DNA from: Eledone cirrhosa
Lineage: Eukaryota
Reading direction: 5' to 3'
Length of the DNA stretch: 64,000 nucleotides
Assembly: GCA_964016885.1 (NCBI GenBank)
Contig: CAXHJY010001064.1
Span: 10,789 to 74,788, forward strand
In this document: one piece after another, positions 9,390 to 63,370 of the stretch
How the letters are laid out: each line of letters begins with the position of its first letter
Position numbering within the stretch: the stretch's first letter is position 1
The notes under the pieces: model-generated
Told to the model about the DNA's origin: nothing
The model's input: only the letters and a program-made list of their open reading frames with translations
Databases searched by the model: none
Position numbers and translations under genes: made by a program

Positions 9390-9905
9390 TGTGGTTGTGT
9401 TGGTAGCATGGTAAAAGGCACCCAGACCATTCTATAAAGTGGTCATGTTGGTGACATGACAAAAAGCACCCACTCCACCCTGTAAAGTGGTTGTATGTGA
9501 CACATCAGAAAGCACCCAGCCCACCATGTAAAGTGGCCGTGTTGGTGACACAAGGGAAAGCATCCAGTCCACCCTGTAAAGAGGTTGTGTTGGTGACACA
9601 ACAAAAAGCACCCAGCCCACCATGTAATGTGCTTGTACTGGTGACTCAATGAAAAAGTGCCCAGTCCATCCTGTAACGTGTTCATTTTGATGCCAGGACA
9701 AAAAGCACCCAGTCCATTCTGTAAATGCGGTTGGAATTAGGAAGGGCATCCAGTTATAGAAACCAAGTCAGAAAACAGTTCTATATGAACAAGAGACATG
9801 GTCACCTGCTCTAATTTGTCTCACAATGGGACAACTCGCCTAACTCATGCTAGTGTGGAAAATGGGCATTAAACGATGGTGATGATGATAATGATAATGA
9901 TAAAT
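9390..9905 (+). repeat. RTE 3'-UTR-derived element with ~40-bp tandem units
   Basis: About 8 aaaagcacccagtccaccctgtaaagtgg units, then taggaagggcatccag...gggcattaaacgatggtgatgat. Confidence 0.75.
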
Positions 9906-32515: not shown

Positions 32516-33342
32516 GATGGTGTTTGGAACATAAATCAACAAAGGTTCGTACATAAAATAATGATTGAAGGTTTAAAACAAACAGTTTTGTATTGTAGAA
32601 CCAGGGGTGGTTTCAGCCAGTTTAATATCAAATAAGAACCCCACCCCCTTATTTTTGAGTGGCCTACACTTCTTAATATGTTTTTCTCTATTACAAGTAT
32701 CTTCCACTGTGATCACATTTCCATCCTTCACATATTGTCCATTATATATCATGTCTTCACACCAGAACAGTTATCTATCTTGCTAAACAGCTGATGCCTT
32801 TAATGGGCAGCTATTTTCTCACCTGTGTTTTGTTTCTGTAAAGTGGTTGTGTTAGTGCCATGCCAAAAAGCACCCAGTCCACACTATAAAGTGGTCATTT
32901 TGGTGCCAAGATAAAAGGCACCCAGTACACAATGTAAATGTGGTTGGCATTAGGAAGGGCATCCAGCTGTAGAAAACAAGCCAGAAATGGTTCTGTATGA
33001 GCAAGACACAGTCATCTGGTCTGACTTGTTTCACAACAGGACAACCCATCTAACCCATGCTAGCATAGAAAATGCACATTAAACAGTGATAACGATGATG
33101 ATGATGATGATGTAGATTAGCATTACACATCCAACAGCTCACTCTTACCTTATTTTATCCAACTTCCATAGATTTTCTATATTAAATTACCATGTCTCAA
33201 CAATATGCCATGTCTCAACATATCAAACATGTATTTTTATATACTAGAGTTTGTTTCAACATGCTGACACATATGCGTATGTGTGTGTATGTAGATTGTA
33301 CACACAAGTGTAGTGGATGTTAGATACTGTTTTCTGTAGTTT

Positions 33343-39640: not shown

Positions 39641-39769
39641 TACATATATATATATATATATCATATATATATATATTACATATATATATATATATATATT
39701 ACATATATATATATATTACATATATATATATATATTACATATATATATATATATTACATATTATATATG

Positions 39770-39803
<34 letters not shown>

Positions 39804-39856
39804 CATATATATATATATATTACATATATATATATCATATATATATATATATATAT

Positions 39857-39891
<35 letters not shown>

Positions 39892-39894
<3 letters not shown>

Positions 39895-42800
39895 TGGGGT
39901 GGGTCTGCTAGATTCATTGAGGGTAAAAAACGATGTTATAAGCTTTTCTGGGTGGGAAACGACGATGGGCTGGGTGGAGTAGGAATCATGGTAGCAGAAA
40001 AGTGGGCAGATAAGATAATAGACGTAAATAGAGTGAATGACAGAATAATTAAAATACGACTTGTCCTCAATAGAACTACGGTGACAGTAATATCTGCGTA
40101 CGCACCCCAATCCGGACTGCCCGGCACTATAAAAGACAGATTCTATGAGACACTGATGCTAACTACCTCCCAAATATCCGACAGTGACTATATAATTATT
40201 GCAGGCGACCTAAATGGTCACGTTGGACAACATTGTGACGGCTACGTACGACGAAATCCATGGAGGCTATGGGTTTGGTACTAGAAATGAGGAAGGCTCC
40301 AGAATCCTGGAATTCTGTGATGCAAATAACCTAACTATCTGTAACACTAACTTCAAAAAACGTGACAATCACCTGATCACCTATAGATCCGGGAAACACA
40401 CAAGCCAGGTAGATTATATCCTTACCAGAAGACGTGACAGAGTGTCTGTTGTAAACACTAAATCCCTCCCCCATGAAGAATGCACCTCGCAACATAGACT
40501 GATAATTAGCGACCTCATAGTCAGGACAAGACGTACTCGACAGCAGAAGAGGACTATCCTCAGGAGAAAAATATGAAAGCTAAAGGACCCCACAGCCAGG
40601 AATAAATTTCAAAGCATATTACTTGATGCTTTCGACAGTAAGGAAGAACATTTAGAGTCGGACAATATAGAGGGAGAGTGGGAATTTCTGAAAGCAAACC
40701 TGCTGTTGGCGACAGACGAAGTCTGTGGCTGGAGCAGGCCTGTAGGCAGGAGGAGAGTAACATGGTGGTGGAACAGTAAGGTGGAGGGGTCAATTAAGGC
40801 CAAAAAGCAAGCTTGGAAAGTATGGCGGGATGGGGGAAGTAGAGAAGACTATCAAGTGGCCAGGAGGGAAGCTAGGAGACAAGTGTACTTAGCAAGAAGG
40901 GAAGCTGAGGAAAGAAAGTTCAAGCATGTTCTACAACGCGATGACCAAAAACGTGAGGTGTTCAGGATTGCTAGGCAATGCGTCAAGGAAAACCGTGATA
41001 TTGTCGGGGAGAAGTGTGTACTTAACGATGATGGCATACTTGCCATCACCGACGCTGATAAGAAGGTAGCTTGGAAGTGTCACTATGAAAGGCTACTAAA
41101 TGAGGAGAATAAATGGGAGAAAGACAGTCTCCCCCATATCGACCCAATAGAGGGACCAGCAGTGTTAGTCGAGGGGAGTATAATAAGTAAGGCAATCAAG
41201 GATATGAAGACAGGTAAGGCGGCTGGGCCTTCGGAAATAGTTGCTGAGATGCTGAAGGCATCTGGCACGGTGGGACACACCATGGTCACTCGCATAGTTA
41301 ACCATGTCGTACAGAATGGGGTTGTTCCGAAGGAATGGCATAGCAGCATCATCGTTAACTGTTATAAGGGTAAAGGAGACGCCCTAGATAGGAGTAACTA
41401 TAGAGGCATTAAATTAATCGACCAGGTCATGAAGGTCACGGAAAAAGTAATAGCGCAACTAATCAGAGAGAGAATTGACCTAGATGAAATGCAGTTCGGG
41501 TTTGTGTCAGGCAAAAGTACCACAGACGCTCTTTTCATAGTACGACAACTACAGGAGAAGTTCCTAGCTAAAGGTAAACCCCTCTACTTAGCTTTTGTCG
41601 ACTTGGAGAAAGCCTTCGACAGAGTCCCCCGCTCCATTATCTGGTGGGCTCTTAGAAAACTAGGCGTTGACGAATGGCTTGTGAGGGCTATACAAGCCAT
41701 GTATAAAGAAACAGTCAGCAAGGTTAGAATTAACAACGAATATAGTGAAGAGTTTAGCGTAAAAGTTGGCGTCCATCAGGGCTCTGTTCTCAGCCCCCTA
41801 CTATTTATTATTGCCCTTCAGGCTATAACAGAGGAGTTCAAGACATGCTGCCCATGGGAACTCCTATACGCAGACGACCTGACACTCATAGCGGAATCAA
41901 TGGCCGAGCTAGAGAAGAAATTCCAAACATGGAAGCACGGCCTAGAGTCAAAAGGACTTAAAATTAACCTGGCTAAGACCAAAGTTCTAGTTTGTAGGAA
42001 AGAAAACAAGGCGGCGGTCACTTCTGGGAAATGGTCGTGCTCGGTGTGTAGGAAAGGCGTAGGTAGAAACTCCATTTTATGTCCTAAATGCAAAGTATGG
42101 GTGCATAAAAGATGTAGTGGGATCACAGGTAAGCTAACTAAGAACATAGATTTTACATGTGGCCGGTGTTCTGGTGCAATAAGTAGCAGCAAGTGCCCAC
42201 AAAATACTAGCTCTTTCAATTGCGCAGAGGGTTCTATAGAAATAGTGGACAGCTTCCGTTACCTGGGCGATAAAATCAGCAGTGGGGGAGGGTGCTCTGA
42301 AAGTACTGTAGCTAGAGTCAGAACTGGTTGGAAAAAGTTCAGAGAGCTTATACCACTATTAGCTGCTAAAGGGTTCTCCCTAAAAATGAAAGGCAGGTTG
42401 TACGATGCCTGCATACGAACAGCAATGTTGCATGGCAGTGAGACCTGGGCATTGTGTGCAGAGGATATACGCAGACTAGAGAGGAACGAAGCTTGCATGC
42501 TCCGCTGGATGTGTAACAGTAATATACGTGAACGGCAAAGCATAAACGAACTAAGGAAAAAATTAGAGATAAGAGGGATCAGATGTTGTTTACTCGAGAG
42601 AAGGCTACGTTGGTATGGACACGTGATGCGCATGAAAGTCGATAGCTGTATAACAAAGTGCAGGGCAATAAAGATAGACGGTAGCCACGGAATAGGCAGA
42701 CCTAGAAAAACCTGGGACGAGCTGATAAACTCCGACCTCACACACTTACACCTCTCCAAGACAATGTCACTGGACCGAGACCTTTGGCGGTACTCAGTAA

Positions 42801-43191
42801 CAGAGAAGACCCGCCTTGCCAGTAGGCATCTCTAACAAAATACACCCCGTCCCGCCACCACCCCCACCCCATCCACACCACCCCGTTCTATGTAAAGTTA
42901 TGTTGGTGCCGCGCCATCCAGGCCGAAACAAATGAGATCGTGTAGGTGTCACGACAAAAAAACACACAGTCCACGCTGTAATGTGGCCGTGTAGGCAACA
43001 CGGTAAAAACCTCCCAGACCCACACTGTAAATGTGGTTGGTGTTAGGAAGGGCATCCAACTGTAGAAAACCTGCCAGACAGTCCTATGCGAGCAAGACAA
43101 TCACTCTTGCCTCAAGTGGGACTACCCCCGTCCAAACCCATGCAAGCGTGGAACACGGACGTTAAACGTTGATGATGATGATGATGATGAT
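39892..43191 (+). mobile_element. RTE LINE family A, near-complete (partial APE endonuclease, RT, PHD, thumb), inactivated
   Basis: EN motifs GVGIMV, ISAYAPQ, GDLNGHVG, QVDYIL and SQHRLI. 4-bp duplication frameshift (tacgtacg 40243-50), TGA at 40574-76, then a 709-aa ORF 40706-42835. Confidence 0.95.
40706..42835 (+). CDS. RTE ORF2 C-terminal part: reverse transcriptase with inserted PHD finger
   Basis: NYRGIKL, QFGF, FVDLEKAFDRV, GVHQGSVLSP, YADD, C4HC3 motif at 42038-42169, RYLG, RRLRWYGHV. Confidence 0.9.
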   Translation: MATDEVCGWSRPVGRRRVTWWWNSKVEGSIKAKKQAWKVWRDGGSREDYQVARREARRQVYLARREAEERKFKHVLQRDDQKREVFRIARQCVKENRDIVGEKCVLNDDGILAITDADKKVAWKCHYERLLNEENKWEKDSLPHIDPIEGPAVLVEGSIISKAIKDMKTGKAAGPSEIVAEMLKASGTVGHTMVTRIVNHVVQNGVVPKEWHSSIIVNCYKGKGDALDRSNYRGIKLIDQVMKVTEKVIAQLIRERIDLDEMQFGFVSGKSTTDALFIVRQLQEKFLAKGKPLYLAFVDLEKAFDRVPRSIIWWALRKLGVDEWLVRAIQAMYKETVSKVRINNEYSEEFSVKVGVHQGSVLSPLLFIIALQAITEEFKTCCPWELLYADDLTLIAESMAELEKKFQTWKHGLESKGLKINLAKTKVLVCRKENKAAVTSGKWSCSVCRKGVGRNSILCPKCKVWVHKRCSGITGKLTKNIDFTCGRCSGAISSSKCPQNTSSFNCAEGSIEIVDSFRYLGDKISSGGGCSESTVARVRTGWKKFRELIPLLAAKGFSLKMKGRLYDACIRTAMLHGSETWALCAEDIRRLERNEACMLRWMCNSNIRERQSINELRKKLEIRGIRCCLLERRLRWYGHVMRMKVDSCITKCRAIKIDGSHGIGRPRKTWDELINSDLTHLHLSKTMSLDRDLWRYSVTEKTRLASRHL

Positions 43192-43320
43192 TACATATAT
43201 ATATATATATATCATATATATATATATTACATATATATATATATATATATTACATATATATATATATTACATATATATATATATATTACATATATATATA
43301 TATATTACATATTATATATG

Positions 43321-46168: not shown

Positions 46169-46201
<33 letters not shown>

Positions 46202-46307
46202 ATTGTTTCTACTTTAGGCACAAGGCCAGCAATAACCCAGTACATTACTGGTACTTTATTTTATCGACCCCGTAAGGATGAAAGGCAAAGTCAACCTCGG
46301 CGGGATT

Positions 46308-46310
<3 letters not shown>
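46202..46310 (-). mobile_element. 5'-truncated SINE
   Basis: Core and tail of the main SINE family. Confidence 0.85.
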
Positions 46311-46438: not shown

Positions 46439-46576
46439 TCATCATTTTACGATCGTTTCTAGGATATATATGTTTGTGTTGGTATGCATATCCTATAGAT
46501 CTATGTAAAATTTTTACAAACTATCAGAGGGAATATACATACCTACACATATATATGCTGTCTTCAGAAATAATGA
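46439..46576 (-). ncRNA. Type I hammerhead ribozyme (long stem II)
   Basis: tcattattt-CTGAAGA-[~100 nt stem II]-GAAAC-gatc-GTA-aaatgatga. Stem I is 9 bp with one G.U. Confidence 0.8.
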
Positions 46577-47583
46577 TATTTGTCTGTTTGGGAACAGGTT
46601 TTGAATTGACCAATAGAAAGATAGTGAAGGTCAAGATAGTAATATAGTAGTAAAAGAACCTTAATTTATGGGTAGAGGAAGGTAGATTTTAGTTTTGGAT
46701 GGAAAGAATATTATGAATGAAAGATTATTTTCGGGATGAGAATAGGTCATATGCTGACCTCAGAAATAATTATATTTGTTCATTGAATAAAACCAACAAA
46801 GATTTAGTATAGTAGGTTTGTTTGGGAACAGGTTTTGAATTAACCAATAGAAAGGTAATAATTGGCCAAATGGTAAAATAGTAGTAATTGAAATTTATTT
46901 TGGGGTAGAAGAAGGCAGATTTCAGTTTTGAATGGAAGGAGTATGAAGAATGAAAAGTTTATTTTAGGGTGAAAATAGGTCAGGTCAGTAAAACGTAACA
47001 CTAAAAGTTGCTGTTATAAAAGAATAATGCCAATGTAAATATCTAAGGAGACTAAAATTTTACGATAAAAGTGTTAGTGAAAAAAATATATATGGAATTT
47101 ACATCTATGAAAAGAATATAAATTAATTTAATTGATGGGTATATTTATATTGATAAAATTATATTAATGCATATAGATATGATAAATAAGAGTTAGATGT
47201 AATTGAAGAGTGCTGTTAAAGACGAGGGGAAATTAAATAAATATAAAAAGAATATATATATATATATATATAATTATTGTGGAGGGGGGGGTGTTAAATT
47301 TATTAGTGAGAAATAATAAATATATAGAGATTTCAAGGAACATAGAATCATAACCCGAAATTAAAATATTATATATATTTACTTAATGGTATCAATTTTA
47401 GGAAAAGATAGTTGTAAGAAGGAAAGTAAAATTATGTAGTTCATCAGTAGTAGAATATTAATTATAGGTTAAGTAAATTAAAAATAGTTTTTATATTAAT
47501 TTCTAAAATGTATATTAATTACGTTTATAATATTTAAAGGTTTTTATCAGTTTATGATTACACGATATTATTAATTCCTGTCG

Positions 47584-47765
47584 TGGTGGATTGGCAGTAT
47601 CGGTAGAGGGTTTGACGCCATGCTTTCCAGCATAGTTACGTCCCTTTATGATCTGAGTTCAAATCCCGCCGAGGTTGACTTTGCCTTTCATCCTTACGGG
47701 GTCGATAAAATAAAGTACCAGTAATGCACTGAGTAATTGCTGGCCTTGTGCCTAAAGTAGAAACA
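47584..47765 (+). mobile_element. SINE inserted in the Penelope GIY-YIG end
   Basis: 17-bp TSD attattaattcctgtcg at 47567-83 and 47766-82. Confidence 0.9.
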
Positions 47766-49206
47766 ATTATTAATTCCTGTCGCTTATTTAATAGGATATC
47801 CTTAGATTTCATTATTTCAAAAAGTTCTTGGGAACATAATCTACATTCATATCTATTATTTTGATAAGGGGTGGCCCTTTTGAGCACACTCCAGGTCAGG
47901 TCATAATCTATATTCCTCTTTCTATAATTATTAATTATTTCAGCTAGAGATGTTGTATTAGCTAATGCGGCATTTTTAAAACTATGTTTGTGGGTATAAA
48001 ATCTTACCTTAAATTGGTTAGAGGTAGCTCCTATATATGAATAAATTGAGTCCTTAGTGTTAACTTTACATTTATATACTATGTTATTAACAAGGCAATT
48101 TCCTTTTAATGGGCAGTTTGCTTTGTTTCTACAGTTACAACTTTTCGTGAATCCTGTATCAGAGGAGATATTATGGTTAGTTTGATGTACTGGTGGTATA
48201 CTCATGTTTTTTTACATTTATATGCATTGTAGGCACTTATATTTTGTTTTATGTTTTTGGTTGTTGAGTAGGAGAATTTAACCGTTGATCTATTTAAAAT
48301 TTGATGGTATTTGTTGTTTGGCGGGAAGTTCTTCTCTAGGATATTAAACATTTTTTTAGGTATATTATCCTTAATTTGTAAATTAAATGGAGCATTATAC
48401 CAAGTAACTCGTCTATTACGGTTTCGATGTTGTTTATTATTTTTATAGGATGTATCCTGATGTTTATTAAGAGAATTATTGTTAATGACTTCACCACACA
48501 CATTTTTAGTTAGATTTATTGATTTAGGTGTTTTAGCTTGTTTATTAGGAGTTTTATTATTAACATTTATTAGAGTAGTAGGATGAGTAGTTTTTTGAGA
48601 GTTACTATATTGTATATTAGAAGAGTTAGAGAAATTTGGTTTTATGTTGGTATTTTGGGGTATAGTGTGAGTGGCATTTAGGTGTGTATGTTTCATTTGG
48701 TGTTTGTTGGTAATATTAGGTTGTATGTTTGTAGTGTTATTGGTACAAGGTATATATACTAATTTATTTTTGTGGCCACTTCTAGCTAAAGCTTCGTTAT
48801 AGAAGGTCGCATTTTTATCAAATATATCCTGGTTAGACGAAAGGTTAGAAATTCTAAGTGAGATATTATATGCAAGGTTTTTAAGGATAGATTTAGGGTG
48901 ATTAGATTGTGAGTGTATGTAATGTAAATTTTGGTTAGGTTTATGGTAAGGTTGGTCGTAGATAAGTCTAATGTTATATCAAGGAAATTAACTACTTTAG
49001 TTGTGTTTTCAAATGTAATATCTAGACTATAATAGTCTTTGAGGAAAGTTCTAATAAGCTTTTTATTTTTTTCTATCTCTGAAAGGCTAAGGTTATTGGA
49101 AAGAAGAAGACAGTCGTCACTATATAAACCACCTTTAAGGTGGGCAAAGGAAGCATTTATGTTAAAAAGAAGAAAGAGGCCTATTGGTTTTTTCAATAAA
49201 CAAATA

Positions 49207-49344
49207 TCATTATTTCTGAAGACAGCATATATATGTGTAGGTATGTATATTCCCTCTGATAGTTTGTAAAAAATTTACATAGATCTATAGGATATGCATA
49301 CCAACACTAACATATATATCCTAGAGACGATCGTAAAATGATGA
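49207..49344 (+). ncRNA. Hammerhead ribozyme copy with core mutation (GAAA to GAGA)
   Basis: CTGAAGA at 49216-22, GAGAC-gatc-GTA at 49324-35, stem I tcattattt/aaatgatga. Confidence 0.7.
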
Positions 49345-49545
49345 ATTTTTTAATATAAGGAACTGTTTCTTTGTTTATTCATTATTTTATTAATTTATCT
49401 TGACTCTGTTTTCCGTTAATTTTCACCTAAAAATTTTTTTGAATACATCTTCTCTTTTCATGATATTCGGATTACATTGAGTTCTTCATACGGATTGGAC
49501 ACTACCGTACATTTTGGTAGATTTATCTACATATATATATATATG

Positions 49546-49676
<131 letters not shown>

Positions 49677-49683
49677 ATAATAT

Positions 49684-49817
<134 letters not shown>

Positions 49818-49869
49818 AATTAATAAAGTAATGAATAAACAAAGAAACAGTTCCTTATATTAAAAAAAT

Positions 49870-50009
49870 TCATCATTTTACGATCATTTCTAGGATATAT
49901 ATGTGTTAGTGTTGGTATGCATATTCTATAGATCTATGTAAAATATTTATACAAACTATCAGAGGGAATATACATACCTACACATATATATGCTGTCTTC
50001 AGAAATAAT
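49870..50009 (-). ncRNA. Hammerhead ribozyme in the 3' pLTR, abutting a SINE
   Basis: attattt-CTGAAGA...GAAAT-gatc-GTA-aaatgat. Confidence 0.7.
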
Positions 50010-50176
50010 TGTTTCTACTTTAGGCACAAGGCCAGCTATTACCCAGTGCATTACTGGTACTTTATTTTATCGACCCCGTAAGGATGAAAGGCAAAGTCAA
50101 CCTCGGCGGGATTTGAACTCAGATCGTAAAGGGACGTAACTATGTTGGAAAGCATGGCGTCCGACCCTCTACCGAT
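50010..50176 (-). mobile_element. SINE in the Penelope 3' pLTR
   Basis: gaaataat duplicated at 50002-09 and 50177-84. Same site as 54182-54353. Confidence 0.9.
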
Positions 50177-50879
50177 GAAATAATGATATTTGTTTATTGA
50201 AAAAAACAAAGATTTAATACAATAGGACTGTTTGGGAACAGGTTTTGAATTGACCAATAGAAAGATAGTGAAGGTCAAGATAGTAATCTAGTAGTAAAAG
50301 AACCTTAATTTATGGGTAGAGGAAGGTAGATTTCAGTTTTGGATGGAAAAGAATATTATGAATGAAAGATTATTTTAGGGATGAAAATAGGTTGTATGCT
50401 GACCTCAGAAATAATTATATTTGTTCATTGAATAAAACCAACAAAGATTTGATATAGTCTGTCTGTTTGGTAACAGGTTTAGAATTAACCAATAGAAAGT
50501 TAATAATTGGCCAAATGGTAAAATAGTAGTAATTGAAGTTTATTTTAGGGGTAGATGAAGGTAGATTTCAGTTTTGAATGGAGTGTGAAGAATGAGAAGG
50601 TTATTTTAGGGGTTAAAATAGGTCAGGTCAGTAAAAGGTATATGAGCAGTTGCTGTTATAAACCAGTAATGCCAATGCAAATATCTAAGGAGACTAAAAT
50701 TTTACGATAAGAGTGTTAGTGAAAAAATACATCCATGAAAAGAATATAAATTAATTTAATTGCTGGGTATATTTATATTGATAAAATTATACTAATGCAT
50801 ATAGATATGATAAATAAGAGTTAGATGTAGTTGAAGAGTGCTGTTAAAGATGAGGGGAAATTAAGAGAATATAAAAATA

Positions 50880-50910
<31 letters not shown>

Positions 50911-51232
50911 TATACATACACATACACACACGCATATATATATATATATACACACACATACATACATATATATATACACATATACATACATACACATACA
51001 TATAATTATTGAAGGGGGGGGGAGTTAAATTTATAATAAATATATAGAGATTTCAAGGAACATAGAATCATAACCTGAAATTAAAGGATTATATATGTTT
51101 ACTTAATGGTATCAGTTTTAGGAAATGATAGTTGTAAGAAGGAAAGTAAAATTATGTAGTTCACATAGTAGAATATTAATTATAGGTTAACTAAATTAAA
51201 AACAGTTTATATATTAATCTCTAAGATGTATA

Positions 51233-53678
51233 TTAATTAGGTTTATAATATTTAAAGGTTTTTCTCAGTTTGTGATTACACGCTATTATTAATTCCTGTC
51301 GCTTATTTAATAGGATATCCTTAGATTTCATTATTTCAAAAAGTTCTTGGGAACATAATCTACATTCATATCTATTATTTTGATAAGGGGTGGCCCTTTT
51401 GAGCACACTCCAGGTCAGGTCATAATCTATATTCCTCTATCTATAATTATTAATTATTTCAGCTAGAGATGTTGTATTAGCTAGTGCGGCATTTTTAAAA
51501 CTATGTTTGTGGGTATTAAAGTTTACCTTAAATTTGTTAGAGGTAGCTCCTATATATGAATAAATTGAGTCTTTAGTGTTAACTTTACATTTATATACTA
51601 TGTTATTAACAAGGCAATTACCTTTTAATGGGCAGTTTGACTTGTTTCTACAGTTACAACTTTTCGTGAATCCTGTATCAGAGGAGATATTATGGTTAGT
51701 TTGATGTACTGGTGGTATACTCATGGTTTTTTTACATTTATATGCATTGTAGGCACTTATATTTTGTTTTATGTTTTTGGTTGTTGAGTAGGAGAATTTA
51801 ACCGTTGATCTATTTAAAATGTGATGGTATTTGTGGTTTGGCGGGAAGTTCTTCTCTAGGATATTAAATAATTTTTTAGGTATATTATCCTTAATTTGTA
51901 AATTAAATGGAGCATTATACCAAGTAACTCGTCTATTACGGTTTCGATGTTGTTTATTGTTTTTATAGGATGTATCCTGATGTTTATTAAGAGAATTATT
52001 GTTAATGACTTCACCACACACATTTTTAGTTAGATTTATTGATTTATGTGTTTTAGCTTGTTTATTAGGAGTTTTATTATTACCATTTATTAGAGTTGTA
52101 GGATGAGTGGTTTTTTGAGAGTTACTATATTGTATATTAGAAGAGTTAGAGAAATTTGGTTTTATGTTGGTATTTTGGGGTATAGTGTGAGTGGCATTTA
52201 GGTGTGTATGTTTCATTTGGTGTTTGTTGGTAATATTAGGTTGTGTTTGTAGTGTTATTGGTACAAGGTATATATACTAATTTATTTTTGTGGCCACTTC
52301 TAGCTAGAGCTTCGTTATAAAAGGTCGCATTTTTATCAAATACGTTAGACGAAAGGTTAGAAATTCTAAGTGATATATTATATGCAAGGTTTTTAAGGAT
52401 AGATTTAGGGTGATTAGATTGTGAGTGTATGTAGTGTAAATTTTGGTTAGGTTTATGGTAAGGTTGGTAGATACCCGTAGATAAGTCTAATGTTATATCA
52501 AGGAAATTAACTACTTTACTTGTGTTTTCAAATGTAATATCTAGACTATAATAGTCTTTAAGGAAAGTTCTAATAAGCTTTTTATTTTTTTCTATCTCTG
52601 AAAGGCTAAGGTTATTGGAAAGAAGAAGACAGTCGTCACGATATAAACCACCTTTAAGGTGGGGAAAGGAAGCATTTATGTTGAAAAGAAGAAAGAGGCC
52701 CACAAGATCAGTAATTTGGGCAGAATCACTTGAGCCCATAGTAATATCGAATAGATTACTATATGTGTTTCTGGTCCAGTATTCATTTTGAAATTCCAAT
52801 AGTATTAGTCTGGCATGTGTAATAATATTAATGTCATCCAAAGTTAAGTTAGATCTATTTTTAGCAAATATCAAGGCTTTGTTCAGGAGTATAGGTGATA
52901 TAGAAGAATAATAATTATCTATATCAAATTGTAGAAATGAAGCAGAGGATCTATTTCTAATATTATTAAACCAGTTAATTACCTGGGATGTGTTTTCCCA
53001 GAGTGGTAAATTAACATGTTTTCTTAGTTGTGGGATGACTCTATCTAAATTTTTTTTACTAATGATTCCAATATCAGATTTGGAAGGGCATATAAGCCTT
53101 ATAGAAGGATTAGAGTTAAAGTTAGATTTATGATCTTTCAGGTTGAAATGTGGTCTTTTCAGTGCCAAAGGTTCAGTTCTATCTTCAATATTAAGTCTAT
53201 TCACTATGTTGTGTGTTTTGTTGTTGATGTTGGTAAGTGACGCATTGTTTGTTTTTCTATAATTCTTCCTGAGTTCTTTATATATGAACTCATTGTAATT
53301 TTCAATATCCATGTGATACAGATTTCCAGTTTTGTCCGAGTGGACATGGATTTTTTTAGATTTTTTTAGATCCAATAGGGTAGAATCAAGATCCTTTTGA
53401 AAATTAGATTTATACCTCTTAAATTTGAGGTGTTTGATTAAATTAAAAAGGTCTTTCTCAAAGTTTTCAAGTAAGGAGTTGTGTGGTGGATTTTTATATG
53501 TAGTGAAATCATATAAATACTTCTTATCAGTACATTTTGTTTTTTTATCGAAGTGGTAGGCCCTCCATCTGACCCTTCTGATAAATTGGTTGTTTTTTTG
53601 TATCATAAGAAGTAAGAAATCATCCTTAGAAGGTAATGGTATATTCTTTAAAGAGGTTCCCAAGTATTGTTTTTCCAT
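51233..53678 (-). pseudogene. Penelope RT + GIY-YIG ORF (~815 codons once repaired), one frameshift and one nonsense mutation
   Basis: ATG at 53678 (MEKQYLGTSLKNIP), SDKTGN, FDIDNYYSSI, TMGS, LYRDD, NFLDI, SNHP, then GIY-YIG. 2-bp deletion near 52245 and TAG at 51437-39 relative to copy B. Confidence 0.9.
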
Positions 53679-54041
53679 TGTGATATGGATAATGGACAAG
53701 AAAAAGAGCTCAACTATGAAGTTATACACATATATATATAGCTCAACTATAAAGTTATACACATATATATATATATATAAATATATATACACATACACAT
53801 ATATATACATTCACAAAAATAAGAATATTCCCATAAAAATAGGAGCAAAGTATGTAGATAAATCTACCAAAAATTTACGGTAGCGTCCAATCCGTATGAA
53901 GAACTCAATGTAATCCGGATATCATGAAAAGAGAAGATGCATTCAAAAACTATTTTCGGTGAAAATTAACGGAAAACAGAGTCAAGATAAATTAATAAAG
54001 TAATGAATAAACAAAGAAACAGTTCCTTATATTAAAAAAAT

Positions 54042-54181
54042 TCATCATTTTACGATCGTTTCTAGGATATATATGTGTTAGTGTTGGTATGCATATTCTA
54101 TAGATCTATGTAAAATATTTATACAAACTATCAGAGGGAATATACATACCTACACATATATATGCTGTCTTCAGAAATAAT
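54042..54181 (-). ncRNA. Hammerhead ribozyme in the 5' pLTR, abutting a SINE
   Basis: attattt-CTGAAGA (54174-54168)...GAAAC-gatc-GTA-aaatgat. Confidence 0.78.
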
Positions 54182-54353
54182 TGTTTCTACTTTAGGCACA
54201 AGGCCTACAATTACCCAGTGCATTACTGGTACTTTATTTTATCGACCCCGTAAGGATGAAAGGCAAAGTCAACCTCGGCGGGATTTGAACTCAGATCGTA
54301 AAGGGATGTAACTATGCTGGAAAGCATGGCGTCCGACCCTCTACCGATACTGC
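54182..54353 (-). mobile_element. SINE in the Penelope 5' pLTR
   Basis: 13-bp TSD cttcagaaataat at 54169-81 and 54354-66. Confidence 0.9.
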
Positions 54354-54920
54354 CTTCAGAAATAATGATATTTGTTTATTGAAAAAAACAAAGATTTAAT
54401 ACAATAGGTCTGTTTGGGAACAGGTTTTGAATTGACCAATAGAAAGATAGTGAAGGTCAAGATAGTAATCTAGTAGTAAAGGAACCTTAATTTATGGGTA
54501 GGGGAAAGTAGATTTCAGTTTTGGATGGAAAAGAATATTATGAATGAAAGATTATTTTAGGGATGAAAATGGGTCGTATGCTGACCTCAGAAATAATTAT
54601 ATTTGTTCATTGAATAAAACCAACAAAGAGTTGATATAGTCTGTCTGTTTGGTAACAGGTTTAGAATTAACCAATAGAAAGTTAATAATTGGCCAAATGG
54701 TAAAATAGTAGTAATTGAAGTTTATTTTAGGGGTAGATGAAGGTAGATTTCAGTTTTGAATGGAGTGTGAAGAATGAGAAGGTTATTTTAGGGGTTAAAA
54801 TAGGTCAGGTCAGTAAAAGGTATACGAACAGTTGCTGTTATAAAATAGTAATGCCAATGCAAATATCTAAGGAGACTAAAATTTTACGATAAGAGGGTTA
54901 GTGATATATAATATATATAT

Positions 54921-54977
<57 letters not shown>

Positions 54978-56176
54978 GCTCCGATTAGTTGAGCGCTCTA
55001 TGATGTAACCGATACGGTGGAGAAGAGAGGAACCAACCAAGAACTACCCCGGAAATCCCCTCTACCATGGGGATGAAAAAACCCCTGACACTGGACAGGC
55101 GTATAGTAACTTTCGGCAGAATAAATACGCGGAAACAAAAAATAAGATAAACCCCTATTTTCCTGCACCAAATCGCATTTGAACAGAGGCCCCCTCAATT
55201 CAATCTATACATGGACAGATGGACAATCATATGGATCATTTTACATATATGTACTCTGTGTTTTTGCATTTATTCACTATTGTCTCTGTTCTTTTCTTAT
55301 CTTTTGTGTACTTTATGTCTGTTTTTCTTTGATTCTGTTCCATGTGATGGAAAGTATGACCGTGTAACAGATTGACTAATGCCTTGAACCATGTGGTTTG
55401 CCCTCCGTTATAATGTACGGCACTGCCGTTCAATATCTGGATAGAGTAACTGTAACACTAGAATCCCTCCCAGAACGTATTACTTAAACATCTTCTCCAT
55501 ATTATTTACTCACTTCAATCTATATTTTTACTCAATCCGAATTATCACTTGAAAAAAATTTTTGAATTTAGAATTTTTGAATTCTTTATTGTTTAATTTA
55601 TAATCTCTGATATTTGATTTAGGATTTTAACTTTAATTTTAATTTTTATTCCCAACTCTCACTCTTAACTTACAATGTAAAACCATAGTACCAAGAATTC
55701 AGTTTATTTTCCCTTTTGAGTTGATGGTCAGTCTTACTGTCAACGCTTAGTGAAAGGTAGTATTATGACCTATAAAAACTAACACCCTCCCATCCCCTCT
55801 GGCTTTCAGCTGACTGTCACAGTAGCGATGGGTAGCAGTAAACTTTGGCAAGGCATAGGTGGGCCACTGACAGCGAATTTCGTTGAAATCTGCGGTGCTA
55901 GTGGTCAACTTCCTTCGGACATGCGCTTGCGCAGACCGGTGGGGGTGAATTGGTATTCACAAGGGAACGGATAAAAAGCCCAAAAGCACGAACTTCATCC
56001 GTTCCCATGTCGATTCAATTTGGATTGCCTCGGAAACAACCTTATTATGTAACAAGCTGTCTGATGATGTCACGACACTCGCACACAGTACAGTGTGGCC
56101 AGTGTCGTCATTGAAATATATATCACAGCATTATTATTAAAGGATTTGAACATCTGAAACTACTTTGCTTTTACTT

Positions 56177-56180
<4 letters not shown>
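54978..56180 (+). mobile_element. (TA)n-flanked 1.2-kb unit ending in a hammerhead; probable PLE 3'/pLTR fragment or non-autonomous element
   Basis: Bounded by TA arrays, several hairpins (gggaacggat/atccgttccc), hammerhead ~50 nt from the 3' end, no recognisable ORF. Confidence 0.55.
56056..56129 (+). ncRNA. Type I hammerhead ribozyme (family 2)
   Basis: gctgt-CTGATGA-tgtc acgacact...agtgtcgt catt-GAAAT-atat-ATC-acagc. Confidence 0.8.
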
Positions 56181-56235
<55 letters not shown>

Positions 56236-56236
<1 letters not shown>

Positions 56237-56707
56237 AAAGATGTAAATAAGAAAGTTATGAAAATTGACTTACTTATTAAATTTCACTCCAACTAATTAG
56301 TTTCTGTAAGGGGATAAATACAGTTATGTAATACTGTACAGAAGCCTTACGTCATCAGGGAGTCTATTCTCAGCTAAGCCACCAGGCAATGCGGGGACAC
56401 TGGAAGCTTATATAACAATAATTCAGTGGATGGAAAAAAGCGTAAAAATCGAGCGGGGCTAGATTCTAAGCACTGAAAAATTCGCTGCCTCCTTGGTCAA
56501 GTGGCAAATTCAAAAGAATTAATCACGTGACACTGATGTTAACCAGCTTGGAGTGGGGGTGCTATTAAGACAGAGCCTAGCTACTACTATCAGTCACAGT
56601 AGTAAGTTGGCAAATTTTGCTCAACAAATAATTTGGAGAAGACTATAAAGAATTAATATATCTACCGATATGTATACATATGTCGGTAGATATATTAATT
56701 CTTTATA
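56236..56707 (-). mobile_element. (TA)n-flanked ~470-bp unit with a hammerhead and a terminal fold-back
   Basis: Hammerhead near the 3' end and a 64-bp palindrome at the 5' end (56644-56707). Confidence 0.55.
56286..56363 (-). ncRNA. Type I hammerhead ribozyme (family 3)
   Basis: actcc-CTGATGA-c gtaagg..tacagt..actgta..ccttac a-GAAAC-taatta-GTT-ggagt. Confidence 0.82.
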
Positions 56708-56711
56708 TATA

Positions 56712-56804
<93 letters not shown>

Positions 56805-57004
56805 ATATATATATATATAATATAAAATAAAATATTAAAAAAATAATGAATAAAACAATGAAACAGTTCCTTATATTAAACAAAAAAAGTTCATTATTTA
56901 ACGATCGTTTCTAGGATATATGTGTTAGAATTGGCATGCATATTCAACAGATCTATGTACAAAATTATACAAAATTATACAAACTATCAAAATTAAATAT
57001 ACAT

Positions 57005-57050
57005 TGTGTATGTATGTGTTTGTATGTGTGTTTATGTGTGTACGTGTGTG

Positions 57051-57099
<49 letters not shown>

Positions 57100-57393
57100 G
57101 TATATGTATCTCTATTTATATGTGTATATATGTGTATGTATATACCTTTTTCTTTGTATGTCTGAGTTGTGTGAGCGTGTAGTGGTGTTTGTATGTATAT
57201 ACGCATATATGGATGTGTATGTATTTGTATATATGCGTATATGTAAGTGCGTATGTGTGTGTGAGTATATATCTATGTCTATGTATGAGTATGTATGTGT
57301 GTGTATGTATGTGTGTGTGTATGTATGTATGTGTGTATGTGTGTATGTATATATGTGTGTATATATATATATGTATATATATGTATGTATATA

Positions 57394-57424
<31 letters not shown>

Positions 57425-57536
57425 TTATTATATGTGTGTGTGTGTGTGTATATATATCTTTATATATGTGTATGTGTATGTATGTGTAGGTGTGTGTGTG
57501 TGTATATATGTATGTGTGTATATGTGTATGTGTGTG

Positions 57537-57577
<41 letters not shown>

Positions 57578-57693
57578 ATGTGTGTATGTGTGTATATATA
57601 TATTTATATATATATATATATTTATATGTGGGTATGTATGTGTATGTGTGTATATATATGAGTGTGTTTATATATATATGTATGTAGATGTGA

Positions 57694-57753
<60 letters not shown>

Positions 57754-57802
57754 GTATATATGTGTATATGTATGAGTGTGTATATATATACGTGTGTTGT
57801 GA

Positions 57803-57845
<43 letters not shown>

Positions 57846-58225
57846 CGTGTATGTGTATATATGTGTGTAAAAATATATATATATATATATATATATGTGT
57901 GTTTATGTGTGTATGTGTCTATGTATTTATATGTGTATATGTATGTGTCTCTATATGTATGCGTGTGTGTATGTGTATGTGTATTTATATGGTATGTGTA
58001 TGTATATGTATGTGTATGTATGTGTTTGTATATATGTGTATGTATATGTATGTATATGTATGTGTGTGTATGCGTGTGTATTTATTTATATGTCTATATG
58101 TATGTATATCGATGTATATTTTATATTTTACTTGTTTGTATATATATATGTATGTGTATGTATATGTGTATATATATATGTGTGTGTATGTGTGTGTGTA
58201 TATATGTGTATATATATGTGTATAT

Positions 58226-58257
<32 letters not shown>

Positions 58258-58305
58258 GTGTGTGTGTGTGTGTGTGTATGTGTGTGTGTATATATATATA
58301 TATAT
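57005..58305. repeat. Compound (TG)/(TA)/(TATG) microsatellite
   Basis: Direct read. It is the source of the long VCIY-type ORFs. Confidence 0.95.
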
Positions 58306-58904
58306 TTTCTTGATATATTTCTTTTTTCTTTTTCTTTTCTTTTTATTTCTAAGTTTATAGATACATTTATAAATAGGCAGTCTGCCGACACCGTTGAATA
58401 CTGACCTCTCCCCCCCTCCCACCTAATTTCTGTATCCTGATCTAAATATGTGTGGCAGTGTTTATGTGCGTGCATTAATGTCCATATGCTTATGATAATA
58501 CTATATACACATATATATGTGTGTGGGGGTGTGTGTGTGTATGTATGTTCGTAGTTATGTGTATGTTTATGCATATACGCGCGTGTGTGTGTGAGTGTAC
58601 GAATATGTGTGAGTATATGAATGTGTGTATACATTTATTTCATATTTATGTGTCTATACGCATTTTATCTGTAGATTATAAACTTACAGAGACATTAGCC
58701 TTGAATTTTTGTATTTACATACATCTTTTTGGCATGCGTATGCATGTGAACATATATCTTTATGCAAATATGTGTACGAAGTTAATCACATGTATATACA
58801 CACACCTAACTGCATAAAATTTTTTGTATTTTCATTGGTCAATTTGAACTCTGTTCCCAAACGGACCTGAAATTTTGAATTGTTGTTATTATCAATAAAT
58901 ATAT

Positions 58905-59059
58905 TTCATTATTTCTGAAGACGGCATATATATGTGTTTGGTATGTATATTTAATTTTGATAGTTTGTATAATTTTGTATAATTTTGTACATAGATCTGT
59001 TGAATATGCATGCCAATTCTAACACATATATATCCTAGAAACGATCGTTAAATAATGAA
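58905..59059 (+). ncRNA. Type I hammerhead ribozyme (long stem II, subfamily 2)
   Basis: ttcattattt-CTGAAGA-[116 nt]-GAAAC-gatc-GTT-aaataatgaa, with a perfect 10-bp stem I. Confidence 0.82.
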
Positions 59060-59328
59060 CTTTTTTTGTTTAATATAAGGAACTGTTTCATTGTTTTATT
59101 CATTATTTTTTTTATATTTTATCTTGACTCTGTATTCCGTTTATCTTTCACCGAAAGTGATTTTTCATTGCATCTCTTCTTTCCATGATATCCGGATTAC
59201 ATTGAGTTCTTCATACGGATTGGACACTACCGTAAACTCTTGGTAGATTTATCTACATATATATAATATATATATATATAATATATATATATATAATATA
59301 TATATATATATATAATATATATATATAT

Positions 59329-59544: not shown

Positions 59545-60190
59545 GAGAATATTGAGAAGCCAGAGGGGATCACTAATGTAGGCGGGAAGCCGCTGGAATT
59601 GGTTGAGGACTTCCTGTATTTGGGAGCAAAGATTGGGAATACGGAAGATGATGTGGTTGAGAGGAAGAGCAAGGCCTGAGCGGCGTGTCACAGCTTGAGA
59701 TCGGTGTGGAAGTCGGACCTTCGTAGAGACCTGAAAATCCGCCTTTTCATTGCTGTAGTGGAGTCTGTGCTGCTGTATGGGTCTGAGACTTGGACACTAA
59801 CCAAGAGACTCACTCAGATGGTGGATGGGTGCTACACGAGAATGCTGAGGATGGCTCTGAACATTAATCAGTATACACTGAGGATGAAAAACTCAGAGCT
59901 GTATGGGAGCATCCCAAAAGTCAGCTCAAAAGTGACACAGAGGAGACTGAGGTTGGCTGGACATGCTCACCGACATCCAGAGTTGACATTGCACTCAGTG
60001 CTCCTTTGGGAGCCCCTACATGGACACACTAGAAGAGGAAGACCAAGGTTAACATATGTTGATGCCCTAAGGACAGACACTGGTCTGTTGGAGATGCAGG
60101 ATATGGCAGCGATAATGAGGGACAGAGACCGCTGGAGAGAACTCGTCCATGGATCTCGAGAATTTTACCCGCCTTAGATAGATAGATATA
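59545..60190 (+). mobile_element. RTE family B 3' end with (TAGA)n tail
   Basis: LELVEDFLYLG and ORF 59695-60177 (ESVLLYGSETWTL, RRLRLAGH, GRPRLTY), then tagatagatagata. Confidence 0.9.
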
Positions 60191-60273
60191 TAGATATATA
60201 TATATATATATATATAAATATATATATATATTATATATATATATAAATATATATATATATTATATATATATAT

Positions 60274-60329
<56 letters not shown>

Positions 60330-60428
60330 TATATATATATAATATATATATATATAATATATATATATATATAATATATATATTATATATATATATATAT
60401 ATAATATATATATAATATATATATATAT

Positions 60429-60459
<31 letters not shown>

Positions 60460-60516
60460 ATATATATATTATATATATATATATATATAATATATATATT
60501 ATATATATATATATAT

Positions 60517-60547
<31 letters not shown>

Positions 60548-60681
60548 ATATATATATAATATATATATATATAATATATATATAATATATATATATATAT
60601 AATATATATATATATAATATATATATAATATATATATATATATAATATATATAATATATATATATATATATTTATATATAT

Positions 60682-60754
<73 letters not shown>

Positions 60755-60758
<4 letters not shown>

Positions 60759-63370
60759 TAAACAAATAATGAACAAACAATTCCTTATATTAAACAAAAA
60801 AAGTTCACTATTTAACGATCGTTTCTAGGGTATATATGTGTTATAATTGGTATACATATTTAACAGATCTATGTACAAAATTATACAAAATTATACAAAT
60901 TATCAAGATTAAATATACATACCTAACTCATATATACGCCGTCTTCAGAAATAATGAAGTATATTTATTGATAATAACAACAATTCAAAATATCAGTTCA
61001 AAATTGACCAATGAAAACACAAAGGGTTAAAAGCAGTTTGGTGTGTGTATATACATGTAAAAACCTTACACATATTTTACAATAATGTGTGTATAATTTG
61101 TATGTGCATACTAAAAAGATGGATGCAAACACAAAATTTCAAGGTTAATATCTCTGTAAGCTTAATGCGCTGATAAGATACGCAATGATACTTATGGAGT
61201 CAAGCATATAAAAATGTTTTTTTCACACATATCAGTATAATCACACATACATGTGCGTATATGCATAAATATACACATAACCACGAACATACAAACACAC
61301 ACACATATATAGGAGCTACCTCTAACAATTTTAAGACAAGGTATAATACCCACAAACATAGCTTTAAAAATGCCGCACTGGCTAATACAACATCTCTAGC
61401 AGAAAAAATCAATAGGTATAAAAATAAAAATATAAAATATGATTTGACCTGGAGTGTGCTCAAAAGAGCCACCCCTTATCAAAATAATAGAAAGGAATGT
61501 AGATTATGTTCCCAAGAACTATTTGAAATAATGAAGTCTAGGGATATCTTATTAAATAAAAGACAGGAATTAATTATATCGTGTAATCATAAACTAAAAA
61601 AAACATTTAAATATTATAAACCTAATTAATAACATTATTCTAGAATTTAATTTAATTTAAATGTTAGTTAACCTATAAATTTAATTTAATTAATATTTTA
61701 TTACAGATGAGAAAATATTATGTAATCATAAATTTTGAAAAACCTTTAAATATTACTAATATATACTCAGTAATTTAATTTATAGATTAATTTTAATTTA
61801 TTTTAACCTTTTATTATAATTTTTTTTTTTTATTATAATTCTTTTACAGATAAAATATAACAAAATAATATCATGTATCCTATGACGGAGAAAGAATTTT
61901 TTAGTATTATAGACCTAATTAATATACATTTTGGAAATATATTTATTATTTGGTTTTAGTTTTAATCAACCTAAAACTTTAATTTTAATTTGCTTAAAAT
62001 TAGTATCCTTGTACAGACGAATTGCAGAATGTCATGTAATCATAGAATGGGATGTGTTTTGGATATATACCTAGTTAATATATTCTGTGCAATTTTTTGA
62101 AAAAGATATGTATATCTATATGTATATGTATATGTGTGTGTTGTATGTGTATCTGTATGTATATTTATGTGACTATATATGTATATATGTGTATATATAT
62201 GTATATATATATATATATGTGTGTATATGTATATATATGTGTATGTGTATGTATATGTATATGTATGCGTATTAATTTTGATTTTTATTTGCATATAATT
62301 ATATTATGCTATTGATGAAATACAATATCTGCTTTATGTATTGTATACCTAATTAACATATACTAATTAACGTATACTATTGAAATAAATATATAATTTT
62401 TAATTTAGTTAACATATAATTTATATGCTACTACCGATGTAATACTTTATTTTATTTTTATTTGGGTTTCTTTTCCCTATTACTAAGTTCATCTCCTAAT
62501 ATTGATACCATAACGTTATTAACTTTAATTTAGTTATAATGTAATTAATAATCTACTACTGTTTGACTTCATAATTCTGCTTCAAATATTATAAACCTAA
62601 CTAATTTACACCTTGGAAATTAATATGTTGACTATCTTTGGTTTAGTTAACATATGATTAATGGTATACTTTTTTATTTTGAGATGCATAGATTTCGTAT
62701 TTCCTAGCACTGAAAATATGTAAGAACATACATTGAATTAAGATACGGAAAATATTATATGTTTCTTGAAACATATATTTACTTTGATCCCCTTCTCCAA
62801 ACCCCCCCTTTCCCCCATACTATTATCATCTGTTTTTGTAAGCGTATATGTATGAATATATGTGTAGGTGGGTGTCTATATAGGTTTTGGTATTTATTTC
62901 TAAATATAAAAATACATATATGAGCATGTAAATATGAATGTAAGATTGAGTGTGTATATATGATTGTACATACATATGTGTGTATATATATGTATATATA
63001 TGTATTATATATGTATGTGTATGTGAATGTGTGGTATGTATATGTGTATGTATATGTATATATGTGTATGTATGTGTATGCTTGTATATAGGAATATATA
63101 TGTATGTGTATATATGTATGTATATGTATATGCGTGTTTGTATGTATGTGTATATGGGTTCTGTATATATTTGTATGTCTCTCTATTTATATGTTTATCT
63201 TCGTATCTATGTGATATATGTGTGTGTGTGTGCACGTATGCATATGTATGTGTTTGTGTGTGTTTGTATGTGTGTGTGTATATATATGTGTATTTGCGCA
63301 CACTCACATACACATATATATATATATATATGTGAGTGTGTATGTGTGTCTGTGTGTGTGTGTGTCTGTG

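What the first reader, a model, noticed from the sequence alone, without database searches (positions are those of the whole stretch)
56056..56363. Two unrelated hammerheads facing each other across a (TA)n tract
Seen: a + strand hammerhead (56056-56129; CUGAUGA, GAAAU-auau-AUC, stem I gcugu/acagc) and a - strand hammerhead (56286-56363; CUGAUGA, palindromic AACUAAUUAGUU stem III, stem I acucc/ggagu). Each lies ~50 nt from the TA array at 56181-56235. Neither resembles the neighbouring Penelope pLTR in sequence. Inference: two further ribozyme-bearing element families inserted tail-to-tail in the same microsatellite, giving three hammerhead families within 3 kb.
Basis: partly seen in the sequence, partly recalled or inferred. 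Interest (0 to 1): 0.7.

Follow-up and report, generated by a model that had tools for sequence, protein, structure and literature searches.

The report
Hammerheads ending two Penelope-type retroelement tails
Two hammerhead self-cutting RNA motifs face each other across a TA microsatellite, likely because they are the tail ends of two different Penelope-type jumping genes that landed independently in the same TA target; this is an ordinary arrangement, and the only unusual trait is an extra-long second stem in these predicted ribozymes.

Summary
Both type I hammerhead motifs are present at the stated coordinates and are not chance (2 found; 0 of 3000 shuffles gave any). They share no sequence with each other or with the neighbouring Hydra-clade Penelope element, but they share its design: a mismatch on top of stem II, a palindromic stem III, and a cut site 54-61 nt before a (TA)n tract. 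Published Hydra-clade hammerheads show the same traits.

Public reads show the left unit (54978-56180) is a high-copy repeat whose hammerhead end is about 26-fold deeper than its body, as expected for 5'-truncated retroposed copies. The right unit's copy number is untested, and no parent ORF was found for either.

The facing geometry needs no function. (TA)n is its own reverse complement, the two stem III palindromes cannot pair, and two ends of the Hydra element face each other in the same way 6.5 kb away. The unusual trait is stem II length: 45, 47 and 101-116 nt here, against 10-29 nt in 42 Hydra-like hammerheads. Rfam misses all seven in the window. Cleavage is untested. The scan's notes held no earlier report of this. 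Verdict: new members of a known kind, low to moderate interest.

The parts
56056..56129 (+). HH-A, type I hammerhead motif; U.U on top of a 45-nt stem II region, C.C at its 4th position, AU-only palindromic stem III; predicted cut after 56124
56125..56180 (+). 3' arm of stem I plus 3' tail of unit A (56 nt from cut site to TA); deepest part of the repeat family
54978..56180 (+). Unit A: repeat-family copy between two TA tracts; no PLE ORF detected; depth rises steeply over the last ~260 nt
56181..56236 (.). (TA)n tract, inferred shared insertion target
   Evidence: target role inferred from PMC8557442
56286..56363 (-). HH-B, type I hammerhead motif; C.A on top of a 47-nt stem II region, 10-nt palindromic stem III; predicted cut after 56291
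56237..56703 (-). Unit B: non-coding, structured (folding z -3.8 for 56237-56640), single copy in the window; genome copy number not tested
56643..56708 (.). Near-perfect ~30-bp fold-back at the 5' end of unit B; possibly an insertion-junction inversion (inferred)
54904..54977 (.). (TA)n tract at the 5' end of unit A
56704..56824 (.). (TA)n tract at the 5' end of unit B; a Hydra pLTR tail (56824-57004, -) ends on its other side
54044..54181 (-). Hammerhead of the neighbouring Hydra-clade PLE (upstream pLTR), 105-nt stem II region
51233..53678 (-). Hydra-clade PLE ORF (RT, C-terminal GIY-YIG), frameshifted near 52250; RWR, DKT and CxCX5C motifs
49872..50009 (-). 3' hammerhead of that PLE, 61 nt before the TA tract 49531-49817 and about 1.2 kb of non-coding DNA after the stop codon

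Best explanation
The two hammerhead motifs are likely the 3' ends of two different Penelope-like retroelement (PLE) families, most likely Hydra-clade elements cut short within a long 3' UTR, which would have inserted independently and in opposite orientation into the same (TA)n tract.

Shown: both motifs, their distance to the tract, the same design in the neighbouring Hydra element, and the high copy number and 3' bias of unit A.

Inferred from PLE biology: a PLE RT/GIY-YIG protein nicks AT-rich DNA and starts reverse transcription at an internal site 55-60 nt downstream of the hammerhead. Synthesis usually stops early, leaving short hammerhead-bearing 3' ends flanked by TA. Because (TA)n reads the same on both strands, orientation is arbitrary and tail-to-tail pairs arise by chance in TA nests. 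Each ribozyme would cleave only as a same-family dimer through its palindromic stem III, in tandem transcripts. The two facing motifs are on opposite strands and would not act together.
For: (1) Geometry: cut site to TA is 56 nt (A) and 54 nt (B; 63 by the script's stricter (TA)5 rule), against 60-61 nt in 3 of the 5 Hydra pLTR hammerheads in the window and 32-106 nt in the 13 metagenome hits with a (TA)4 run within 300 nt.
(2) Design: a mismatch on top of stem II in 19 of 42 distinct hammerheads from 50 of 79 Hydra-like loci (18 U.U, 1 C.A), and U.U in 14 of 26 Hydra rows of Craig et al. File S2 (counted by eye). Self-complementary stem III is the rule in both sets. HH-A and the window pLTR both have C.C at stem II position 4; HH-B and the pLTR share C.A on top.
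(3) Unit A is a dispersed repeat: 2099 contigs in X1 and 2647 reads in X6, mostly 90-99% alike; median body depth about 5,400 against 121,000-161,000 over the hammerhead (26-fold); an X4 contig ends at 56179 and continues as (AT)n; 5 strand-switch joints, as in PLE inversions; a 318-nt contig of a second organism spans the hammerhead.
(4) The neighbouring Hydra element has 0.9-1.2 kb between stop codon and hammerhead, so a 1.1-kb ORF-less upstream region fits a truncated autonomous element.
(5) Two Hydra ends face each other across 49531-49817.
(6) A/B stem III cross-duplex is +2.2 kcal/mol; self-duplexes are -3.2 (A) and -9.0 (B).
(7) Almost all Hydra families insert in (TA)n (PMC8557442 section 11). 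Internal RT initiation and AT-rich cleavage were shown for an Anolis PLE (PMC11167929).
Against: No PLE ORF remnant was found in either unit (Hydra HMM and tblastn; Pfam on 17 ORFs), so no parent is shown and the clade rests on RNA design and target only; Neptune and Naiad elements also favour microsatellites. Stem II is longer than in any Hydra hammerhead examined (maximum 29 nt, 26 nt). HH-A's stem III starts with U and is AU-only (41 of 42 comparators start with C), so it may be weak. Unit A's body has a flat depth right up to 54978, and some X4 and X5 contigs join the last 200-300 nt to other upstream sequence, which fits a non-autonomous family as well. No cleavage or expression data.
Confidence: 0.6

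Rival explanations
1. One or both units are complete non-autonomous elements (dispersed retrozyme-like monomers, or SINE-like passengers sharing a hammerhead-plus-tail 3' module) moved in trans by a (TA)n-targeting PLE such as the neighbouring Hydra element.
For: No ORF in 1.1 kb. Flat body depth to the first base, a steep step at 55920-56003 rather than a smooth 5' decline, and loose ends in X4 and X5 where the 3' module joins other upstream sequence. Dispersed monomers of PLE-derived retrozymes are described (bioRxiv 10.64898/2026.07.22.740005).
Against: No head-to-tail (go-back) joint is listed in the 4 runs (table 5), so tandem retrozyme arrays of unit A are not seen. No tRNA gene was found. 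The neighbouring autonomous element also has a long non-coding 3' region. 74 X6 reads run on past the tail into sequence absent from the window, which could be a 5' leader of a longer parent or just one locus's flank.
Confidence: 0.3
2. HH-B is a lone, decayed or locus-specific motif rather than part of a repeat family.
For: Single copy in the window; no match among GTDB genome contigs (a prokaryote set, so weak); unit A alone can explain the word share in X1.
Against: Intact core, perfect 10-nt palindrome, the same C.A pair as the pLTR hammerhead, the same spacing to TA, and TA tracts at both ends; 0 of 3000 shuffles.
Confidence: 0.07
3. The facing pair is one functional unit, for example a bidirectional terminator, or a viroid-like replicon with a ribozyme on each strand.
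For: Symmetry: both motifs lie about 50 nt from the tract and have similar stem II lengths.
Against: The symmetry follows from a fixed tail length. In X4 another copy of A ends in (AT)n; the same geometry occurs between two Hydra ends; the palindromes are incompatible; the stretch between the motifs is only two tails and a microsatellite.
Confidence: 0.03

Closest known systems
Hydra-clade Penelope-like elements and their 3' hammerheads (Craig et al. 2021, PMC8557442, section 11 and File S2)
   Same: Type I hammerhead near the 3' end, frequent U.U mismatch on top of stem II, self-complementary stem III, (TA)n target, 5' truncation and inversions. The neighbouring ORF carries the Hydra motifs.
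   Different: Stem II region is 45-47 nt (101-116 nt in the pLTR family) against 12-26 nt in the published Hydra rows. No parent ORF is linked to A or B. Neither core motif occurs in that paper's supplement text (line breaks could hide a match).
Minimal and palindromic-helix-III PLE hammerheads (Cervera & de la Pena 2014, PMC4209133)
   Same: Dimer-type design, extra nucleotide after A9, mostly single motifs from truncated PLEs, and pairs 100-700 bp apart on opposite strands.
   Different: Here there is an extra nucleotide on both sides of stem II, stem III is 8-10 nt, and the two opposite-strand motifs belong to different sequence families.
Non-LTR retrozymes of animals (PMC7229834; bioRxiv 10.64898/2026.07.22.740005)
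   Same: Non-coding, hammerhead-bearing, high copy. Axolotl HHR_Amex2 has a U.U mismatch at the base of helix II and cleaves (22% in 1 h as a monomer, more as a dimer).
   Different: Retrozymes are defined by head-to-tail repeats of roughly 200-350 bp that yield circular RNA. No tandem joint of unit A was seen, and unit A is 1.2 kb.

Membership tests
Type I hammerhead ribozyme | CUGANGA and GAAA boxes, UH cut site, closing stem I | tested here: met
   Both motifs
Type I hammerhead ribozyme | Stem II closed directly by a 10.1-11.1 pair | tested here: not met
   U.U (A) and C.A (B) sit on top of the stem; the same variant is in 19 of 42 Hydra-like hammerheads and in a cleaving axolotl motif
Type I hammerhead ribozyme | Match to an Rfam hammerhead model | tested here: not met
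   0 hits at gathering score in the window; no hammerhead family among 12 hits to E 10 in 54900-56850
Type I hammerhead ribozyme | Self-cleavage | not testable with these tools
   Needs an in vitro assay
Hydra-clade PLE (units A and B) | Hammerhead close to the 3' end, which abuts (TA)n | tested here: met
   X4 contig ending in (AT)n
Hydra-clade PLE (units A and B) | RT with RWK and DKT motifs, CxCX5C linker, C-terminal GIY-YIG | tested here: inconclusive
   Absent from these copies, which may be truncated; no genome is held to find a parent
Hydra-clade PLE (units A and B) | Dispersed copies, 5'-truncated, with inversions | tested here: inconclusive
Hydra-clade PLE (neighbouring element 49815-54900) | RWK-like, DKT and CxCX5C motifs, C-terminal GIY-YIG, partial tandem with pLTR | tested here: met
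   RWR, DKT and CNCRNKSNC; 914-bp direct duplication 53987-54900 / 49815-50718; no tree was built
Non-LTR retrozyme | Head-to-tail repeats, each with a hammerhead | tested here: not met
   Single units here; no go-back joint for unit A in 4 runs.
Non-LTR retrozyme | Monomeric circular RNA in vivo | not testable with these tools
   No RNA holder listed
Naiad PLE | 3' end matching a cephalopod Naiad consensus | tested here: inconclusive
   The ~100-nt 3' ends of 4 of 5 cephalopod Naiads seen do not resemble A or B by eye; whole consensuses were not aligned

The most novel reading that the evidence does not exclude
This genome carries a lineage-wide class of long-helix-II hammerheads (45-116 nt), in at least three families and probably many thousands of copies, invisible to Rfam and to published PLE descriptors. 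In it an internal C.C mismatch four pairs from the core replaces loop 2 as the tertiary contact, and the hammerhead-plus-tail of unit A is a 200-300-nt module amplified as a non-autonomous passenger under several different bodies. The Naiad 'half cores' 35-50 nt apart that Craig et al. could not fit to a fold would then be worth re-folding with the same descriptor.
Probability: 0.25. Interest if true: 0.5.

Novelty: new member of a known kind. Interest (0 to 1): 0.3.

Why it matters
The facing pair itself is an ordinary by-product of several retroelement families sharing a self-complementary (TA)n target. The practical value is the long stem II. Seven motifs of three families in 64 kb are missed by Rfam, so hammerhead and PLE counts in such genomes are probably underestimated. 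The three families also give a natural length series (45, 47, about 105 nt) for testing whether helix II length and the conserved mismatches affect dimer cleavage.

Tried and rejected
No whole genome is held, so no genome-wide BLAST was possible.

Rfam: no hit at gathering score. At E 10 there were only miRNA-, snoRNA- and viral-UTR-type matches far below their thresholds, treated as hairpin or low-complexity noise.

Homology of A to B: 8 of 200 shuffles scored as high, not accepted. Coding remnants in A or B: two tblastn hits at E 0.06-0.07 and one Pfam hit at E 0.098 among 17 ORFs, rejected. Pfam also missed the 3 genuine Hydra ORF pieces, so this negative is weak. No tRNA head.

Collections: no Hydra relatives in viral contigs; no HH-B pattern in GTDB contigs; no blastn match of A or B to the 79 loci. 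No RNA holder was listed. Read ends in X6 fall at AATT sites and were taken as RAD digestion artefacts. An indirect test of B's copy number from word shares was uninformative. Selective conservation of HH-A across copies is not shown: 1 of the 25 near-fixed differences among the 40 rows displayed (of 186) falls in it, in the terminal loop, which is too few to call.

My first guess that the neighbour was a Naiad was dropped. Lunse et al. 2017 was not available. Five paper searches found no description of cephalopod PLE hammerheads with a long stem II; one search found nothing on such nests. The library lacks most subscription papers and Repbase.

Full report
Observation. Both motifs are at the stated coordinates. 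A descriptor (CUGANGA, stem II, GAAA, palindromic stem III, UH, stem I of at least 5 pairs) finds 2 in 54978-56703 and none in any of 3000 shuffles, and 7 in the window against 0 in 100 block shuffles. The other five are copies of the pLTR hammerhead of the neighbouring Penelope-like element; a sixth copy at about 49209 has GAGA in place of GAAA. Rfam finds none of them. Isolated folds score z -2.1 to -3.4, but the minimum-energy folds mispair the core; the cleavable fold costs 2.5-3.2 kcal/mol more.

Context. The region 46-62 kb is a nest of retroelement pieces separated by (TA)n tracts. [quoted passage not shown] 2021 (PMC8557442, section 11 read). No tree was built. Its only species-named relatives among the 120 listed are Argonauta proteins at 39-40% identity; that the host is an octopod is my inference from this and from recalled octopus repeats, not a tool result. 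Units A (54978-56180, +) and B (56237-56703, -) each run from one TA tract to the next, are single in the window, carry no Hydra ORF remnant, and are not alignable to each other or to the pLTR beyond shuffles.

Design comparison. All 7 window motifs have a mismatch on top of stem II, a long stem II and a palindromic stem III. HH-A and the pLTR both have C.C at position 4; HH-B and the pLTR share C.A on top. In the pLTR family the long stem keeps pairing across subfamilies: G.U or A-U at position 2, and A-U to G-C at position 5 in 1 of 6 copies. In File S2 of Craig et al. (read), 14 of 26 Hydra rows show U.U on top of stem II by my count, stem II regions are 12-26 nt, and the motif lies near the 3' end. 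One spike-moss PLE has a 54-nt region flagged as deviant, so a long stem II has precedent. Among 79 Hydra-like metagenome loci, 50 gave a plus-strand hammerhead and 29 none (3' end missing or variant). The 42 distinct motifs have stem II regions of 10-29 nt, 19 have the top mismatch, and 13 hits have a (TA)4 run 32-106 nt downstream. Cut site to TA is 56 nt for A, 54 nt for B and 60-61 nt for three pLTR copies; a fourth ends at 210 nt and the fifth reads on toward the ORF. Two alternative ends match the PLE 'tail' that PMC11167929 (parts 1-2 of 4 read) traces to internal RT initiation.

Copy evidence. Only unit A was laid on public runs. All 30 bins are covered in X1; 2099 contigs (X1) and 2647 reads (X6) align, mostly at 90-99%. 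Summed depth has a median of about 5,400 over the first 23 bins and is 121,000-161,000 over the hammerhead, 26-fold higher, while most of the long X1 contigs listed have depth 9-11. The tool warns that summed depth is not a copy number, so I read this only as a very abundant, 3'-biased repeat. One X4 contig ends at 56179 and continues as (AT)n. Five strand-switch joints and no go-back joint are listed. A 318-nt contig from a second organism (X5) spans the hammerhead with 15 differences and 4 gaps. The only displayed near-fixed difference inside HH-A is in the terminal loop (56089), so the U.U, G.U and AU palindrome appear to be family traits; 146 of 186 rows were not displayed. For B there is no copy evidence: A alone can explain the 0.36 word share.

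Mechanism. Shown: motifs, geometry, shared design, and A's repeat behaviour. Inferred: each unit is the 3' end of a PLE-type RNA, reverse-transcribed from an internal start just past the hammerhead into a nicked (TA)n target and usually truncated. The neighbouring element has 0.9-1.2 kb between stop codon and hammerhead, so the lack of an ORF does not by itself make A non-autonomous, although its flat body depth and variable upstream joins leave that open (0.3). Orientation in (TA)n is arbitrary. Two Hydra ends face each other across 49531-49817, and an RTE-type LINE end faces a Hydra end across 60178-60752. The A and B palindromes cannot cross-pair (+2.2 kcal/mol; self-pairing -3.2 and -9.0) and the motifs lie on opposite strands, so cooperation is unlikely. 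Cleavage would need same-family dimers, as reported for PLE hammerheads (PMC4209133, parts 1-2 of 4 read; review passages of PMC6765202). A U.U at the base of helix II is compatible with cleavage in the axolotl (passages of PMC7229834). The biological role of PLE hammerheads is itself unsettled: in the Anolis element cleavage was not needed for insertion in vitro.

Comparison and novelty. PMC4209133 already notes PLE hammerheads 100-700 bp apart on opposite strands and mostly single motifs from truncated PLEs. Retrozymes (bioRxiv 10.64898/2026.07.22.740005, parts 1-3 of 5 read, its supplements not seen) are defined by tandem units, which were not seen here. The three core motifs are absent from the Craig supplement text, and five searches found no paper on long-stem-II cephalopod PLE hammerheads; passages of the giant squid genome paper only count 235 Rfam hammerheads. 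Repbase and Lunse et al. 2017 could not be checked. Earlier notes of this scan hold no look-alike. Verdict: real motifs, new families of a known kind, a coincidental facing arrangement, and one mildly unusual structural trait. Interest 0.3.

Noticed in passing
window 54044-54181, 49872-50009, 46439-46576, 58905-59059, 60804-60958: The Hydra pLTR hammerhead has a 101-116-nt stem II region, about four times the longest seen in 42 Hydra-like comparators, with pairing kept across two subfamilies about 80-85% alike.
   Followed up: partly
window 54347-54806 (also 50177-50624, 46581-46981): The Hydra 3' UTR holds two ~230-bp tandem units, each beginning with a degenerate copy of the hammerhead's stem I and first core box; possibly relics of earlier pLTR duplications.
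   Followed up: no
window 49209-49533 / 49815-50009: Two Hydra ends face each other across one TA tract, one with the long (~210 nt) and one with the short (~60 nt) tail; the left one has a mutated GAAA box.
   Followed up: yes
window 56643-56708: Near-perfect 30-bp fold-back hairpin at the 5' end of unit B, next to TA; gives sub-threshold miRNA matches in Rfam.
   Followed up: partly
window 54176-54354, 47593-47771, 46199-46310, 50010-50180 and at least 6 other places: An abundant ~180-bp SINE-like repeat with a B-box-like motif; inserted just upstream of the Hydra hammerhead and inside a Hydra ORF.
   Followed up: no
window ~39640-43200 and ~43190 onward: The start of an RTE-type LINE and its preceding TA tract appear twice, 3551 bp apart, with identical flanks; recent tandem duplication or assembly artefact.
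   Followed up: no
window 56824-59260 and 60750-61685: Inverted Hydra structures: a pLTR fragment and an ORF end joined in opposite orientation (breakpoint near 61305), typical PLE 5' inversions.
   Followed up: partly
window 1963-2359, 9413-9725, 32839-32944: Dispersed 48-bp tandem repeat family.
   Followed up: no
PMC8557442 File S1: Eight Naiads, two from cephalopods, are annotated with hammerhead half-cores 35-50 nt apart, the same spacing as HH-A and HH-B; they were not re-folded here.
   Followed up: no
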